From IMG/VR virus record IMGVR_UViG_2711768008_000020: a stretch of 5,264 bases of DNA. The stretch is one strand, 5' to 3'. Both the position numbers and the translations under genes were made by a program. The first letter of the stretch is position 1; each line of letters begins with the position of its first letter. Positions 1 through 5,264 of the stretch are shown here, piece by piece. This DNA is from a virus. Taxonomy: Duplodnaviria > Heunggongvirae > Uroviricota > Caudoviricetes. The notes beneath the pieces are model-generated. The model did not search any database. It was not told the origin of the DNA and worked only from the letters and a program-made list of their open reading frames with translations.

Positions 1-35
1 GAACAGGAGGGACAGCTGATAGAAACAGAAGCCAC
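1..35 (-). CDS. insA: IS1 InsA, N-terminal 11 codons only (partial, runs off window start)
   Basis: Minus-strand reading from GTG at 33-35 gives MASVSISCPSC, the InsA N-terminus as I recall it. GAGGTG Shine-Dalgarno (plus-strand cacctc at 41-46) sits 5 nt upstream. Confidence 0.7.
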   Translation of the reverse strand, partial: MASVSISCPSC

Positions 36-90
36 TGGAGCACCTCAAAAACACCATCATACACTAAATCAGTAAGTTGGCAGCATCACC
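1..90 (-). mobile_element. IS1: IS1 insertion sequence, left terminal portion (terminal inverted repeat at 68-90 plus 5' end of insA); element continues beyond window start
   Basis: Bases 1-90 are the reverse complement of the IS1 left end as I recall it (GGTGATGCTGCCAACTTACTGAT ... GAGGTGCTCCAGTGGCTTCTGTTTCTATCAGCTGTCCCTCCTGTTC). Element boundary is at 90/91. Identification is from memory of the IS1 sequence, not a database search. Confidence 0.8.
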
Positions 91-722: not shown

Positions 723-756
723 TCGCCATGAAGCTCTTTCATGGCGATTTTTTATT
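723..756 (+). terminator. Rho-independent terminator on the plus strand, convergent on the 3' end of tfa
   Basis: Perfect 10-bp stem (723-732 tcgccatgaa pairing with 738-747 ttcatggcga), 5-nt loop gctct, followed by TTTTTTATT (748-756). No comparable U-tract follows the hairpin on the minus strand. Confidence 0.55.
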
Positions 757-839: not shown

Positions 840-1421
840 TTACCCTATAGGTGCTACTGGCCATTCAATATCCGGTGCAGTTGATGTATCAACACGGTTC
901 AGCAACACCCGATACTTTTTCCAAGCTTCCAGCAACAAGGTTTCTTTCTCCGTTGCGATCTCCAGATCCACAGCATCCTGAAGCGGCGCTATATGCTCAC
1001 TGGCTACCTGCATCAGGCTGTTTTTTGTTTCTTCCGCCTCCCGGATCCGGAACAGTTTTTCTGCTTCCGTATCCTTCACCCAGGCTGTGCCGTTCCACTT
1101 CTGAAACTCCCCTTCCGGGGATAACCAGGTGACATTTTCCGGTAATGAGCCGAGTTCAGAAATAAATAACGCGTCGCCGGAAGCCACGTCATAAACCGTT
1201 TTACCCCGATGATCTTCAACGAGATGCCACGATGACTCATCACTGTTGAAAACAGCCACGAAACCAGCCGGAATATCTGGCGGTGCAATATCGGTACTGT
1301 TTGCAGGCAGACCTGTATGAGGCGGAATATATGCGTCACCTTCACCAATAAATTCATTAGTTCCGGCCAGCAGGTTATAAATTTTTATGGTCCGTGGTTG
1401 TTCACTCATTCTGAATGCCAT
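840..1421 (-). CDS. tfa: Tail fibre assembly protein (lambda Tfa / TfaE / TfaR family chaperone)
   Basis: 193-aa ORF starting [62 protein letters not shown], matching lambda-type Tfa as I recall it. ATG at 1419-1421 overlaps the stf stop by one base (TAATG). GAGG lies 8 nt upstream of the ATG. Stop TAA at 840-842. Confidence 0.92.
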
Positions 1422-4400
1422 TATGCAAGCCTCACAATATAGTTAAATGCGATGTTTTTGACGGTGTTTTCCGCGTTACCAGCAGCGTTAACGGTGATGG
1501 TGTGTCCATGTGAACCAATCGCAACAGAGTGCGTATGAGCACCAATACCGACAGTATGCGCGTGTGCACCCGCAGATGCTGCTGTGCCGGACAGTGAGTG
1601 TGTATGGTTTCCTTCTGNNNNNNNNNNNNNNNNNNNNNNNNNNNNNNNNNNNNNNNNNNNNNNNNNNNNNNNNNNNNNNNNNNNNNNNNNNNNNNNNNNN
1701 NNNNNNNNNNNNNNNNNNNNNNNNNNNNNNNNNNNNNNNNNNNNNNNNNNNNNNNNNNNNNNNNNNNNNNNNNNNNNNNNNNNNNNNNNNNNNNNNNNNN
1801 GCCACTGGTTAATGAGCCACTGATACCAACCTGATTAGTCCCGCTAACTTGAGTACTCCCTGCCGGAAACATTCCAGTAGGTTGACTCCCGCTATTCGTT
1901 CTGGGCCCAGTCTGACTATGTTGGTGGGCCCCAGCTGAACTTGTAGAGCCGCTCAGACTGTGCGTATGCGCCCCGGTGTTATTCGTGGATTTAGTGCCGT
2001 AATCAAACGACGATGTGGTTTTCGTCCCCAAATCCGTACTGGATGCGCTGGCGCTGTGGGTGTGCGATTTAATGCCATCCTGTTCCTGAGACAATACGGC
2101 ACGACCACTGGCGGGCTTGCCCTTAATCGTCCAGCCACGCATATCAGGGATCACGCCTGACGGATAAGCGGCTGCAAGTTTCGGGTAAGCAGATTTGTCA
2201 AAAGTCTGCCCCTGCATCAGGGCATAACCAGACGGAACGGTATCTGATGGCCACGGGATTGGTGCACCGACTGGATAAAACTCTGCAGGAGGATGAGCCG
2301 AGGTGTAAAGCTGCGCCCACGGCGACCAGTTTGCGTCGGTCGTATCCCGTCGTGAACGAATAAATGCCGGAGCATGAGCACCGCTTGTACCACTCCAGCC
2401 GATGAGTAACTCACCTTCGCCAACGGCTGTCATCCCTTTCAGGTGAATGATATTTCCATACGCTGTTGGATATCCGTTGTTATACACCTCGTATAACTCA
2501 AGACCTGCTGCCCCCTGCGTATTGTCTGTCAGCGCGGCTACCCGACCTTTTGAAGCCAGATTAACTGATGATACTGCTGTTCCACCTGACGGTAGCGCCC
2601 CGATCTCTGATGCCGTTGGCTTATTTCTGGAGTTATAGTCCCTTCGCCAGCCAGGTGAATAATCTGTTCCGTGATTAATATAGGTAAACTGGGCGTTGGT
2701 TGTTCCGCCACCGCTGGATGTGGTCGGAGTGGTAATGCGGATCGTCATCGCTGACTTTATCCCCATTACTTCAATGACAGCTCCGGCGAGATGAATATTA
2801 CCGCAGCCAGTATCAGTAATGATTTTATTATTGCCATAAGACCAGGAACCCTTGCACATCCAGTATGGATGGTTAAATGCTCCCTGAGAATCCAGCCACT
2901 CGATAAACTGTGCAGTCGTCCAGTTTCCTGTTGTTGTGCTTACTGACCCACCGAAGGCACGGCAGGCACCAATATTTTTCGTAAAGGTGTCTTTGCCAGG
3001 GATATCCGCACCGTTCTGATCTTTCTGCAGACGTTTCTCAGCATTGTCATTGGCTGCTTTTACTGCCTTTGGCGTTGCCGCCAGCGTTTCAGACGTGCTG
3101 TTGGTCGCGCTGCTTAGCTGGATTATCCCTTTCTGTGCTGTCGTTGCATCCTGTGCGGTGTATTTCCCGTTAGCCAGGTCATACGCGGCCTTAACGGCTT
3201 TTGGCGTTGCCGCCTGTGACTCGGAAGTGCTGTTAGTCGCACTGCTGAGCTGTACTATCCCCTTTTTCGTCGTGCTCGCATCCTCAAGCGCCACGGCGGA
3301 TGCAANTTTTGCCGCTGTCTCAGCGCGCGTTGCTGCAGATTCCGCCGTACTTTTGCTCTGAGCTGCCGCCGTCGCACTGCCAGCTGCCTCTGTCGCCTTC
3401 GTGGATGCCGTCGTGGCGCTGCCCTTCGCTGCTGACGCCTGTCTGGTCGCCTCATCTTTTGAAGCAGACGCCGATGATGCCGATGACGCCGCCGAACTGG
3501 CGGACGATGCGGCAGCCGTTTTTGAGGATTCTGCACGGGTTTCCGACGCTTTCGCGTTCGTTTCGGATGTCTTCGCTGCGGAAGCTGACCTCGCTGCTGC
3601 CGTGGCCTGCTCAGTGGCTTCGCCAGCCTTCGTTGTGGCTGTTGAAGCGGATGATGCGGCGCTTTCTGCCGATTTTCCGGCGGCGGTGGCACTGGCTGAG
3701 GCCTGCCCGGCACTTGTTGACGCGGCGCTGGCAGACGACGCAGCCGCTGTTTTTGAGCCTGCCGCAGCTGAGGCACTCTGTCCCGCTGCCGTTTCAGAAG
3801 ACCTGGCGTTCGTCTCGGACGTTTTGGCCGCCTTCGCAGAATTTGCAGCCGCCGTCGCCGAGGAAGCTGCGCTACTGGCGCTTGATGATGCGTTCGTTTC
3901 TGATGATTTTGCCGCCTCTTTTGAAGCCGACGCATCCCGGGCTGAGGTGGCAGCTTCTGACGCTTTCGTGGTCGCGGTGGATGCAGAAGTGGCTGCTGAT
4001 TGTTGTGACGCTGCCGCATTCGTTTCTAACGTTTTCGCCGCACCGGCACTGGTAGCCGCCGCGCTTTTTGAGGACTCTGCAGCGGCAGCACTTTTTGAGG
4101 CTTCAGTGGCCTTTGTTGATGCCGTTCCTGCGCTGGAAGACGCTGACTGAGCCGACGAAGCGGCCTGTCCGGCTGACGTGCTGGCTGCACGTGCTGAATC
4201 TGCAGCATCAGTCGCATGGGTTGCCGCCTCACGGGCTGATGTGCTGGCATCGCTGGCTGATTTCTTCGCGGCTGCCGTGTTCTGTGCCACCGCGGACGCG
4301 TTACGCGCCACCTCTTCCACCATCAGCTCAAAACGGCGCAGAGCCTCCGGACGGGCATCATCCTCCGTCATGGCACCGAGAAAATCATTCAGCGTACCGG

Positions 4401-4647
4401 GTCGGGAATCTTCATACACGGTGATGGTCCCGGCATGTGACGGCGGGAATCCCTCCACCAACAGAATAACGCTGTACTGCCCGTACTCAACGTCCATGCT
4501 GTAACGCCCGGCTTCATCCGGATTTTCTGAGGCCAGCGTGTTCACCACCACCGTGGTGCTGTTACGTTTTGCTTTCAGCTGGATTGTGCAGTTCTGTACC
4601 GGTTTTCCTGTGCCGTCTTTCAGTACACCTGAAATCTTTACTGCCAT
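1421..4647 (-). CDS. stf: Side tail fibre protein (lambda Stf / StfR-like), mosaic, interrupted by an assembly gap
   Basis: N-terminus [26 protein letters not shown] from ATG at 4645-4647 (the track's extra MN comes from an upstream GTG). It is followed by a long Ala/Ser/Thr-rich region, a duplicated KGI(V/I)[20 protein letters not shown] motif and a central domain. Downstream of the gap the correct frame reads ...[60 protein letters not shown] and stops at TAA 1421-1423. The track ORF ending at 1432 reads the last ~62 codons in the wrong frame because the 183-N gap is not the true length. Confidence 0.9.
1618..1800. other. Assembly/scaffold gap (183 N) inside the stf coding sequence
   Basis: Uninterrupted run of n from 1618 to 1800. 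Flanking coding frames differ by one base, so the real missing length is not 183. Confidence 0.97.
3052..3272. repeat. Direct tandem duplication (~132-bp period) inside stf encoding two copies of a tail-fibre repeat motif
   Basis: Core ttggcgttgccgcc occurs at 3069-3082 and 3201-3214 with similar flanks. The two copies translate on the minus strand to [27 protein letters not shown] and [27 protein letters not shown]. Confidence 0.7.
3300..4305. repeat. Low-complexity Ala/Ser/Thr-rich coding repeat region of stf (fibre shaft)
   Basis: About 330 codons dominated by A/S/T with recurring motifs ([27 protein letters not shown]). GCN-rich DNA on both strands generates three long shadow ORFs in other frames. 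Confidence 0.65.
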
Positions 4648-4656
4648 ATTCACCCC

Positions 4657-4685
4657 ACAAAAAAGCCCGCCTGAACCGGCGGGCT
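4657..4685 (-). terminator. Rho-independent terminator downstream of lom, immediately upstream of the stf ribosome-binding site
   Basis: Minus-strand AGCCCGCC (4678-4685), loop GGTTCA, GGCGGGCT (4664-4671), then TTTTTTGT, giving a perfect 8-bp GC-rich stem. It lies 26 nt after the lom stop (TGA, 4712-4714) and runs directly into GGGGTGAAT-ATG of stf. Confidence 0.6.
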
Positions 4686-4711: not shown

Positions 4712-5264
4712 TCAGAATTTATAACCGACACCCACGATGAAACCGTCAGTGCGCCAGTCACCACTGCCGGAACCTTCATAAGCGACATCAATGGCCACGG
4801 ACTCGGTCGGGTTAAACTGCACGCCAGCCCCCCACGCCAGAGACGTGTTGCTGTGGCGACCGTCATCACTTCCGGTCAGCACATCGTGCGTTTTCCCCTT
4901 ATTGTCAGTTACGCGGATATAATCCCCGGAAAAAGTCGACACACGGCTGTAAGCCACACCCGCCATCGCATACGCGCTGAACCATTCATTCACGCGCACA
5001 GACGGCCCCGCCATCACGCTGAACCAGCGGTTACGCACGGAATCTTCATACCAGCGGGTATCGCTGTAACGGGTCAGCTGGCGATTCTTGTCTCCTGCAT
5101 AGCTGAACGACGTCACCATCCCCAGTGTGTCCGTAAACTCATAACGGTATTTCACGTTAATCCCGTTCAGATCATCACTGCCGGGAACGTTCGTCGAGGC
5201 ATGAAGATACCCCGCGCTCAGCGTGGACTGATGTTCAGACGCCCATGCAGGCGCACCGGATACG
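4712..5264 (-). CDS. lom: Lom/Ail/PagC-family outer-membrane beta-barrel protein, partial (N-terminus beyond window end)
   Basis: Reading frame is open from the window edge to TGA at 4712-4714. C-terminus ...DVAYEGSGSGDWRTDGFIVGVGYKF and internal GINVKYRYE, VMAGP, SAYAMAGVA motifs match lambda Lom as I recall it. The track's start at 5155 is an internal GTG. Confidence 0.85.
   Translation of the reverse strand, partial: VSGAPAWASEHQSTLSAGYLHASTNVPGSDDLNGINVKYRYEFTDTLGMVTSFSYAGDKNRQLTRYSDTRWYEDSVRNRWFSVMAGPSVRVNEWFSAYAMAGVAYSRVSTFSGDYIRVTDNKGKTHDVLTGSDDGRHSNTSLAWGAGVQFNPTESVAIDVAYEGSGSGDWRTDGFIVGVGYKF

What the first reader, a model, noticed from the sequence alone, without database searches (positions are those of the whole stretch)
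2300..3040. Central stf domain looks like a swapped-in receptor-binding module
The N-terminal (~4303-4647) and C-terminal (~1421-2290, from ...[13 protein letters not shown] onward) parts match lambda Stf as I recall it. The central ~250 codons ([63 protein letters not shown]...) do not resemble what I recall of lambda Stf. This fits mosaic domain exchange that sets host range; the receptor specificity is unknown.
Basis: inference. Interest (0 to 1): 0.4.

Follow-up and report, generated by a model that had tools for sequence, protein, structure and literature searches.

The report
Swapped shaft cassette in side tail fibre
The middle of this prophage side-tail-fibre gene really is a swapped-in piece absent from phage lambda, but it is a common, highly conserved pair of shaft "knob" modules already seen in phages Mu, P1 and P2, and the part that most likely chooses the receptor is a different, hypervariable stretch near the fibre tip.

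Summary
The minus strand carries lom, stf (4647..1421), tfa and an IS1 end. Stf residues ~535-789 (window ~3045-2281) have no counterpart in lambda Stf or K-12 StfR, while the flanks are collinear.

The "receptor-binding module" reading is not supported. The centre is two autonomous modules:
- A (535-675) is ~80% identical to a solved domain of the Mu S' fibre (PDB 8JU3). It also occurs in P1 S' and P2-like gpH.
- B (676-789) gives a model whose best matches are T4 gp34 and R-pyocin shaft knobs. In P1 S' it lies upstream of A, the reverse order.

The cassette is in 800 of 5426 complete E. coli genomes. It stays 97-100% identical while joined to at least 9 different tips. E. coli BH100N has the window's tip with an unrelated centre.

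Residues 790-910 are ~85% identical to the T4 gp37 collar and needle. Similarity to every reference except two E. coli prophages that carry the window's own tip stops where gp37's receptor-specificity loop begins (window ~1917-1600). That variable tip is the likely receptor determinant. It is partly hidden by a 183-N scaffold gap, which is 28 nt in relatives.

Verdict: ordinary, already-known tail-fibre mosaicism. The receptor remains unknown.

The parts
4712..5264 (-). 3' part of lom (Ail/Lom outer-membrane beta-barrel). It runs off the window edge.
   Evidence: Pfam Ail_Lom, E 5.7e-110. Same position as lom in lambda and in relatives.
4664..4685 (-). Terminator-like hairpin with a T-run, between lom and stf
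   Evidence: Consensus scan and the sequence itself. This is a pattern match only.
1421..4647 (-). stf, the side tail fibre gene. About 1023 codons once the mis-sized gap is replaced by the 28 nt seen in relatives.
   Evidence: ORF and translation. Full-length collinearity with PhiR68_2 Stf and R12 Stf.
4246..4647 (-). Residues 1-134: tail-attachment domain
   Evidence: Pfam phage_tail_N, E 1.2e-71. Residues 1-94 align residue by residue with the lambda Stf chain in the tail structure 9E7M.
3277..4245 (-). Residues 135-457: Ala/Ser-rich coiled-coil shaft. It holds a ~105-aa internal insertion relative to lambda, a single N at 3306, and a 4-codon gap next to that N relative to relatives.
   Evidence: Alignment, segment table. 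Lambda's proximal coiled coil is residues 102-393 (PMC12617516).
3046..3276 (-). Residues 458-534: two Phage_fiber_2 repeats (..[15 protein letters not shown]..AATPKAVK). Lambda, StfR and R12 have one copy.
   Evidence: Pfam PF03406, E 4e-37, 2 stretches. Direct repeat 3046-3152 / 3178-3284, 75% identical, period 132 nt.
2623..3045 (-). Residues 535-675: centre module A, including the shared linker [17 protein letters not shown] globular domain homologous to a solved domain of the Mu S' fibre.
   Evidence: PDB 8JU3 residues 178-362, domain i-Evalue 1.8e-69, about 80% identity. Foldseek E 2.4e-21. 85% identical to P1 Sv' 215-350 and 84% to P2-like gpH 335-475.
2281..2622 (-). Residues 676-789: centre module B, a beta-rich knob ending ..[20 protein letters not shown]
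   Evidence: 64% identical to P1 Sv' 47-153, which lies upstream of A there. AF2 model pLDDT 75.9. Best Foldseek matches are T4 gp34 C-terminal region, phage AS12 gp42 tailspike, R-pyocin fibre and 8JU3. Weak Pfam Gp34_trimer hit.
1918..2280 (-). Residues 790-910: collar domain and proximal half of the HxH needle
   Evidence: Pfam Collar, E 6.3e-12. About 85% identical to T4 gp37 tip structure 2XGF chain residues 28-148, E 2.4e-58.
1601..1917 (-). Hypervariable tip between the HxH repeats. This is the probable receptor-specificity loop. It is interrupted by the N run 1618-1800.
   Evidence: No match in lambda, StfR or PhiR68_2; 100% identical in R12 and BH100N. At least 9 alternative tips occur behind the same centre. 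It sits at the position of T4 gp37 932-965 (PMC9659904).
1618..1800 (.). Run of 183 N: a mis-sized assembly gap, 28 nt in relatives
1424..1615 (-). Distal HxH repeats and conserved C-terminus (..[18 protein letters not shown])
   Evidence: Pfam Phage_fiber, E 3.5e-6. 98% identical to StfR and 78% to lambda.
840..1421 (-). tfa, the tail fibre assembly chaperone. Its start overlaps the stf stop (ATAATG).
   Evidence: Pfam Caudo_TAP, E 4.6e-44. 93-98% identical to the Tfa of lambda, Rac, PhiR68_2, R12 and BH100N.
1..90 (-). End of an IS1 element; the terminal inverted repeat GGTGATGCTGCCAACTTACTGAT starts at 90
   Evidence: Annotated IS1A lies under the match in three genomes, plus the sequence itself.

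Best explanation
The window holds the distal end of a lambdoid prophage tail operon: lom, stf, tfa. Stf is a trimeric side fibre built from exchangeable cassettes, in this order:
- a lambda-type attachment domain;
- an Ala/Ser-rich coiled coil;
- two Phage_fiber_2 repeats, at the position of lambda's hinge;
- a central cassette of two autonomous, beta-rich globular modules, A and B;
- a T4-gp37-like collar and HxH needle.

The central cassette replaces lambda's hinge-distal segment (lambda ~386-528). It arrived by recombination at short conserved linkers: ..AATPKAVK / [16 protein letters not shown] on the left, and W..Y T(S/T)..P / [12 protein letters not shown] on the right.

Its most likely role is structural (inferred). 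It would form two knobs in the distal half-fibre that set length and stiffness, and the conserved joints at both ends would let distal ends be swapped. Receptor choice would be made mainly by the hypervariable loop at the turn of the needle (window ~1917-1600), folded with help from Tfa.

Shown here: the module boundaries, the homologies, the independent reassortment of centre and tip, and the conservation pattern.
Inferred: the structural role of the centre and the receptor role of the tip, by homology with T4 gp37 and lambda Stf.
Unknown: the receptor of this tip.
For: 1. Segment table and alignment: the centre has no match in lambda or BH100N, and only a 27-aa linker match in StfR. It is 99-100% identical in PhiR68_2 and R12.
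2. Module A matches a solved Mu S' fibre domain by sequence (8JU3, domain i-Evalue 1.8e-69) and by fold (Foldseek E 2.4e-21).
3. The 11 best Foldseek matches of the module B model are all phage or pyocin fibre or tailspike proteins: T4 gp34 (seven chains), phage AS12 gp42, two R-pyocin fibres and 8JU3, with probabilities 0.98-1.0.
4. The modules are permuted. P1 Sv' has B before A. P2-like gpH has A only. Photorhabdus proteins have A twice. Some proteins have B directly before a Mu/P2-type tip. In all, 1030 clusters at 50% identity hold A and/or B, at any position in proteins of up to 3594 aa, with up to 6 matched stretches.
5. The centre is conserved and the tip is diverse. The centre is in 800 of 5426 complete E. 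coli genomes, mostly at 95% identity or more. The window's tip is in 25 of them. In 68 IMG/VR loci the centre (97-100% identical; one group 83%) is joined to at least 9 tips.
6. BH100N has the window's tip DNA at 100% identity but an unrelated centre.
7. Residues 790-910 align with T4 gp37 812-932 at ~85% identity. Similarity to lambda, StfR and PhiR68_2 ends where the gp37 specificity region 932-965 starts (PMC9659904). The ball-shaped gp37 tip carries the LPS and OmpC binding sites (PMC6957217).
8. In lambda, the receptor-binding domain is the gp37-like distal end, and residues 423-525 are a distal shaft domain (PMC12617516).
9. Engineered lambda Stf chimeras fused at R393 or S528, the same two junctions, take on the specificity of what lies downstream (PMC11338833).
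10. A structural atlas of tail fibres independently describes pyocin-knob and distal-gp34 domains as mobile pseudo-domains of undetermined function (bioRxiv 10.1101/2024.10.28.620165).
Against: - No binding or host-range experiment exists for modules A or B. A purely structural role is an argument from position, conservation and homology.
- A lies inside the invertible, host-range-switching segments of Mu and P1, so a contribution to specificity there cannot be excluded.
- The structural matches for B are marginal (E about 0.01, TM 0.55). The Pfam Gp34_trimer score (18.5 bits) is below its 27-bit cut-off.
- Only monomer models could be made, with moderate confidence (mean pLDDT 66.6 and 75.9).
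- The paper describing 8JU3 (Mori et al. 2024) was not available to read.
- Some Stf proteins bind LPS sugars (Gifsy-1, PMC12312913), and the binding site there is unmapped.
Confidence: 0.72

Rival explanations
1. The central cassette is itself a receptor- or glycan-binding module. It would contact LPS, O-antigen or capsule sugars laterally and contribute to host range, either together with the tip or instead of it.
For: - The centre is globular and beta-rich, not a simple coiled coil.
- Module A belongs to the variable Sv' parts that are switched by inversion in Mu and P1.
- Lambdoid Stf proteins can bind LPS core sugars at unmapped sites (PMC12312913).
- Different centre types exist in otherwise similar fibres: AB, StfR-type, BH100N-type and lambda-type.
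Against: - The centre is 97-100% conserved across at least 9 tips and is present in 15% of complete E. coli genomes. Host-range determinants under selection are usually the most variable part.
- The modules occur in any order and copy number and far from fibre ends.
- No lectin or carbohydrate-binding fold appears among the credible structural matches.
- The best structural analogues, T4 gp34 and the pyocin fibre, were not mapped to individual domains here. That gp34 has no receptor role and that the pyocin knobs are non-binding shaft parts is from my own recollection, not from a tool result.
Confidence: 0.15
2. The centre tunes fibre length and hinge geometry adaptively, for example to reach through O-antigen or capsule layers of different depth. 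It would then affect host range without binding anything.
For: - Centre types differ greatly in length: about 135 aa in lambda, about 255 aa here, and about 380 aa in StfR.
- The centre replaces lambda's hinge and distal shaft domain (PMC12617516).
- The number of Phage_fiber_2 repeats also varies from 1 to 3 among relatives.
Against: There is no test, and no correlation with host surface type was examined. The same centre occurs in E. coli of many backgrounds and with many tips.
Confidence: 0.1
3. The gene is a decayed prophage remnant. The frame change across the N run and the odd 4-codon gap would mean that stf is a pseudogene and the module has no current function.
For: - The reading frame differs on the two sides of the 183-N run.
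- There is a single N and a missing RAED at ~3306.
- An IS1 lies about 750 bp downstream of tfa.
Against: - DNA flanking the gap is 100% identical to R12 and BH100N, where 28 nt fill it and the ORF is intact.
- The N run is a placeholder, not sequence.
- The rest of the ORF is open over 949 codons.
- The same allele occurs in several IMG/VR viral contigs.
Confidence: 0.05

Closest known systems
Phage lambda (Ur-lambda) side tail fibre Stf and E. coli K-12 Rac StfR
   Same: Same gene position (lom, stf, tfa). Same N-terminal attachment domain (90-99% identical), Ala/Ser coiled coil, Phage_fiber_2 repeat, gp37-like collar/needle and C-terminus. Tfa is nearly identical.
   Different: Lambda residues ~386-528 (hinge plus distal shaft domain) and the ~380-aa StfR centre are replaced here by modules A and B. 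The tip loop differs from both, so lambda's OmpC specificity cannot be assumed. The window has an extra fibre repeat and a ~105-aa coil insertion relative to lambda.
Side tail fibres of the lambdoid phages PhiR68_2, PhiR29, PhiR42 and mEp460_ev081, and prophage Stf of E. coli R12
   Same: The centre is 97.6-99.6% identical and the whole protein is collinear. R12 and six IMG/VR contigs carry the same centre and the same tip as the window.
   Different: PhiR68_2 has a different tip loop. R12 has one fibre repeat instead of two.
Phage Mu S' (gp52) fibre, PDB 8JU3; also P1/P7 S' and P2-like gpH
   Same: Module A is about 80-85% identical to a solved internal domain of Mu S' and to the corresponding parts of P1 Sv' and P2-like gpH. 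Module B is 64% identical to a part of P1 Sv'.
   Different: Those are myovirus baseplate fibres with other N-termini and a Mu/P2-type C-terminal tip rather than a gp37-type needle. In P1 Sv' the order is B then A. In Mu and P1 the modules lie in an invertible segment, and no invertase or inverted segment is present in this window.
T4 long tail fibre: gp37 tip (PDB 2XGF) and gp34 C-terminal region (PDB 4UXG/4UXE)
   Same: Residues 790-910 are about 85% identical to the gp37 collar and needle, with HxH repeats on both sides of a variable loop. The module B model best resembles the gp34 C-terminal region.
   Different: The loop sequence is unrelated to T4's. The match to gp34 is structural and weak (E about 0.01; Pfam hit below cut-off). 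The chaperone here is Tfa (lambda type), not gp38/gp57.

Membership tests
Lambda-type side tail fibre (Stf) | N-terminal tail-attachment domain (Pfam PF08400, phage_tail_N) | tested here: met
   E 1.2e-71 over residues 1-134. Residues 1-94 align with lambda Stf in structure 9E7M.
Lambda-type side tail fibre (Stf) | Gene order J, lom, stf, tfa at the end of the tail operon | tested here: met
   lom, stf and tfa are in the window. J lies upstream of lom in PhiR68_2, R12 and BH100N. J itself is outside the window.
Lambda-type side tail fibre (Stf) | gp37-like collar, HxH needle and conserved C-terminus, paired with a Tfa chaperone | tested here: met
   Pfam Collar and Phage_fiber; 2XGF E 2.4e-58; Tfa 93-98% identical to known Tfa proteins.
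Lambda-type side tail fibre (Stf) | Assembles on the virion and speeds adsorption to a surface receptor | not testable with these tools
   This needs phage genetics and adsorption assays.
Mu S' / P1 S' / P2-like gpH internal module (the domain solved in 8JU3) | Sequence and fold homology to 8JU3 residues ~178-335 | tested here: met
   phmmer domain i-Evalue 1.8e-69, about 80% identity. Foldseek E 2.4e-21.
T4 gp34-type / pyocin-type fibre knob (Pfam PF21446, Gp34_trimer) | Pfam match above the curated cut-off, or a clear structural superposition | tested here: inconclusive
   Pfam score is 18.5 bits against a 27-bit cut-off. Foldseek to 4UXG gives E 0.011, probability 1.0, TMq 0.55; to the R-pyocin fibre, probability 0.98. 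The 11 best hits are all phage or pyocin fibre or tailspike proteins, but each is individually weak.
   The segment is internal. About 235 residues of collar, needle and tip follow it. The same modules occur mid-protein in fibres of up to 3594 aa.
   It is 97-100% identical across loci that differ in tip type. 629 E. coli records are at least 99% identical.
   No experiment on modules A or B was found in the papers read.
T4 gp37-type receptor-specificity loop (applies to ~1600-1917, not to the finding's coordinates) | A variable insert between conserved HxH-repeat flanks, at the position of gp37 932-965 | tested here: met
   The conserved flank ends at chain residue 148 of 2XGF, which is gp37 ~932. 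At least 9 alternative inserts occur among relatives. Flank and specificity-region boundaries are from PMC9659904.

The most novel reading that the evidence does not exclude
The conserved A+B cassette could be a second, lateral adhesin, for example a low-affinity binder of a conserved LPS-core or enterobacterial surface glycan. It would give many different fibres a common first contact, while the variable tip supplies strain specificity. That would make these two-receptor fibres, and would explain why the cassette is so conserved and so widely shared between siphovirus Stf and myovirus gpH/S' fibres.
Probability: 0.1. Interest if true: 0.5.

Novelty: already known. Interest (0 to 1): 0.15.

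Why it matters
The main value is practical. It shows where specificity probably lies in this fibre, so that annotation or host-range prediction does not target the wrong segment. The natural breakpoints coincide with the fusion points already used to engineer lambda Stf chimeras (R393 and S528). They mark safe junctions for swapping distal ends. The conserved A+B cassette could also serve as a marker for a large family of fibres that share a gp37-type tip scaffold. The biological role of such mobile knob domains is still open, but this window adds no new kind of element.

Tried and rejected
- Tfa co-variation. I asked whether the chaperone tracks the tip or the centre. Tfa is 93-98% identical in all six phages or prophages compared, so it is uninformative.
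- Pfam on the centre gave only a sub-threshold Gp34_trimer hit.
- The word-indexed protein search with module B alone returned only 30 hits, mostly fragments. The exhaustive representative search was more useful.
- The AF2 monomer model of the whole centre was mediocre (pLDDT 66.6, with a disordered A-B linker). Foldseek therefore gave only 8JU3 as a significant match. A separate model of B was better.
- The paper describing 8JU3 (Mori et al. 2024, Virology 593:110017) is not held, so what its authors say about the module A domain is unknown to me.
- My first regular expression for tip extraction was too strict and missed most loci. I replaced it with clustering of whole C-termini.
- The pseudogene reading was rejected after alignment across the N run.
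- Nothing else was found on the opposite strand of 2300-3040 beyond short mechanical ORFs. There is no Rfam family there.
Full report
**What is in the window**

All genes read on the minus strand:
- the 3' part of lom (5264-4712; Pfam Ail_Lom, E 5.7e-110);
- a terminator-like hairpin (4685-4664);
- stf (ATG 4647, stop 1423-1421);
- tfa (1421-840; Caudo_TAP, E 4.6e-44);
- an AT-rich spacer;
- the end of an IS1 (90-1).

The stf ORF is interrupted by 183 N (1618-1800), and the reading frame differs on the two sides. E. coli R12 and BH100N have flanking DNA 100% identical to the window's. In both, the N run corresponds to 28 nt, giving ..SLTSG-TSQWVGKSS-SEGNHTHS.. in frame. The N run is therefore a mis-sized scaffold gap and the gene is probably intact, at about 1023 codons. 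A single N at 3306 sits next to a 4-codon gap (RAED) relative to relatives.

**Checking the observation**

I rebuilt the 774-aa Ur-lambda Stf from the lambda record and took StfR from K-12. The alignment and a per-segment BLASTP table give the following identities to lambda:
- residues 1-134: 90% (99% to StfR);
- the Ala/Ser coiled coil: 72-85%, with a ~105-aa internal insertion;
- the Phage_fiber_2 repeat: 76-78%;
- residues 790-910: 83%;
- the last 64 aa: 78%.

Residues 535-789 have no match in lambda. In StfR only a 27-aa linker ([16 protein letters not shown]..) matches. The exact replaced stretch is about 3054-2281. One correction is needed: the C-terminal part is not uniformly lambda-like. 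Residues ~911-970 (window ~1917-1600) match neither lambda, StfR nor PhiR68_2.

**Anatomy of the centre**

PHROG profiles split the centre into two parts.

Module A (535-675) is about 80% identical to residues 178-362 of PDB 8JU3, the Mu(-) S'/gp52 fibre (domain i-Evalue 1.8e-69). It is 85% identical to P1 Sv' 215-350 and 84% to a P2-like gpH at 335-475. An AF2 model of the centre (pLDDT 80-90 over A) finds 8JU3 with Foldseek E 2.4e-21.

Module B (676-789) is 64% identical to P1 Sv' 47-153. There it lies upstream of A, so P1 has the order B-A. A separate AF2 model of B has mean pLDDT 75.9 and is mostly beta strands. Its 11 best Foldseek matches are all phage or pyocin fibre or tailspike proteins:
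- the T4 gp34 C-terminal region (4UXG/4UXE; E about 0.01, probability 1.0, TMq 0.55);
- the phage AS12 gp42 tailspike;
- the R1 and R2 pyocin fibres;
- 8JU3.

This agrees with a sub-threshold Pfam Gp34_trimer hit (18.5 bits against a 27-bit cut-off). The match to gp34 is suggestive, not proven.

**The modules are portable beads**

Alignments of homologues show several arrangements:
- A alone;
- A twice in tandem (Photorhabdus);
- B directly before a Mu/P2-type tip;
- B, then spacer repeats, then A;
- A-B before a gp37-type end.

An exhaustive search of 1.84 billion cluster representatives finds 1030 clusters with A and/or B (E <= 0.001). Among the 150 best hits that were listed, the modules sit at any position in proteins of 92 to 3594 aa, with up to six matched stretches. 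The end of A (..[20 protein letters not shown]) resembles the end of a later 8JU3 domain (..ADWSEIYTTTRKPSAGDVGAY). B and the last StfR-centre domain both end ..RS.RD..W..YTS.

DNA alignments place the breakpoints in these conserved linkers. On the left they are nested: lambda diverges after KAVK, BH100N after NDNA, and StfR after NGADIP. On the right all sequences rejoin at [12 protein letters not shown]. These two junctions correspond to lambda R393 and S528, the fusion points used to build functional lambda-P2, -K1F, -K5 and -KL106 Stf chimeras (PMC11338833).

**Centre and tip reassort independently**

- The centre DNA is present at 80% coverage or more in 800 of 5426 complete E. coli genomes; 629 records are at least 99% identical.
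- The window's tip DNA is present full-length in only 25 genomes.
- BH100N Stf has the window's N-terminus and a 100% identical tip, but an unrelated centre (..GWFKLATVTMPQ..).
- PhiR68_2 has the window's centre (99-100%) but another tip.
- A scan of IMG/VR found at least 590 relatives of the centre. Among the best 80 loci, 68 have complete C-termini. In these, a centre 97-100% identical to the window's (one group about 83%) is joined to at least nine different tip loops.
- Some of those loci (L063/L064 at 98% centre identity; L073 in the ~83% group) carry the A-B cassette plus a gp37-type end behind a P2 gpH-type N-terminus. The cassette therefore serves myovirus baseplate fibres as well.
- Tfa is 93-98% identical in all fibres compared, so it tracks the conserved needle and C-terminus and neither variable part.

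**Where the receptor determinant most likely is**

Residues 790-910 align with chain residues 28-148 of 2XGF, which correspond to T4 gp37 ~812-932, at about 85% identity (E 2.4e-58). Similarity stops there and resumes in the last HxH repeats. In T4 the conserved flanks are 812-931 and 966-1026, and the putative specificity region is 932-965 (PMC9659904). Mutational and binding work places the LPS and OmpC sites on the ball-shaped needle tip (PMC6957217). For Ur-lambda, cryo-EM/ET and modelling describe StfN (1-91), a proximal coiled coil (102-393), a hinge (394-422), a distal domain (423-525), and a gp37-like receptor-binding domain predicted to dock into OmpC (PMC12617516). By homology, the window's specificity loop is at ~1917-1600. 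The centre studied here replaces lambda's hinge and distal shaft domain, not its receptor-binding domain. The loop sequence is unlike lambda's, so OmpC cannot be assumed, and the receptor is unknown.

**Interpretation**

Mosaic exchange is shown. The statement that the centre is the receptor-binding, host-range-setting module is not supported. The centre is internal, permutable, highly conserved, and uncoupled from the variable tip. Its most likely role is as two structural knobs that also provide conserved recombination joints.

A tail-fibre structure atlas independently lists pyocin-knob and distal-gp34 domains as mobile pseudo-domains whose function is still undetermined. It suggests they may ease lateral transfer of neighbouring parts (bioRxiv 10.1101/2024.10.28.620165). 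A lateral, low-affinity glycan-binding role cannot be excluded. Gifsy-1 Stf binds an LPS-core galactose at an unmapped site (PMC12312913). I found nothing here that points to such a role for A or B.

**Novelty**

The same allele exists in annotated phages and in many E. coli prophages. Module A has a solved homologue. Horizontal shuffling of tail-fibre segments among lambda, P2, Mu, P1 and T4 has been known since the early 1990s; I give Haggard-Ljungquist et al. 1992 and Sandmeier 1994 from my own knowledge, with the former also cited in the atlas preprint. The finding is real, but it is ordinary and already explained.

Noticed in passing
window 1618-1800: A run of 183 N inside the stf tip, with a different reading frame on each side. 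In E. coli R12 and BH100N the identical flanks are separated by only 28 nt (ACCTCCCAATGGGTAGGTAAATCATCTT), so this is a mis-sized scaffold gap. It hides part of the probable receptor loop.
   Followed up: yes
window 3306 and neighbouring codons: A single ambiguous base (N). The window reads ..ETAAK-X-ASAV.. where all relatives read ..ETAAKRAEDIASAV.., a 4-codon difference. This is either a real deletion in the coiled coil or a local assembly error.
   Followed up: partly
window 1-90: The terminal inverted repeat and first bases of an IS1 element, starting at 90 and running off the window. It lies about 750 bp downstream of tfa. In R12 and BH100N, which lack the IS1, the sitABCD operon follows tfa after a similar AT-rich spacer.
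   Followed up: partly
window 880-1078 (-): Rfam family RF02111 'IS009' matches at 218 bits (gathering score 117), entirely inside the 3' half of the tfa coding sequence. This Rfam family therefore coincides with a conserved prophage tfa segment.
   Followed up: no
window 3046-3284: Two copies of the 44-codon Phage_fiber_2 unit (75% identical at DNA level, period 132 nt). Relatives have 1 (R12, lambda, StfR), 2 or 3 (L063, P2-like gpH) copies, so copy number changes by unequal recombination.
   Followed up: partly
L007 (E. coli BH100N) Stf residues ~540-712: An alternative centre cassette (..NGRVPSARKVNGKALSADITL..GWFKLATVTMPQASSVVSITLIGGAGYN..) sits between the same fibre repeats and the same tip as in the window. 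I did not characterise it.
   Followed up: no
P0014 and P0017 (Photorhabdus); alignment A2: Module A occurs twice in tandem in short Photorhabdus tail-fibre proteins of 362-370 aa.
   Followed up: no
K-12 genomes, hits H112-H119: The module B part of the centre (query bases 501-741) is 99.6-100% identical to DNA in K-12 strains that lies under the annotation 'nohA: DNA-packaging protein'. From my own recollection, not checked here, this is the Qin prophage. It suggests a truncated stf remnant abutting nohA.
   Followed up: no
window 723-747 (+) and the AT-rich spacer 90-840: A strong hairpin (11 pairs) with A- and T-runs on either side, about 100 bp downstream of tfa, lies in a 29-37% GC spacer. 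It may be a bidirectional terminator at the prophage end.
   Followed up: no
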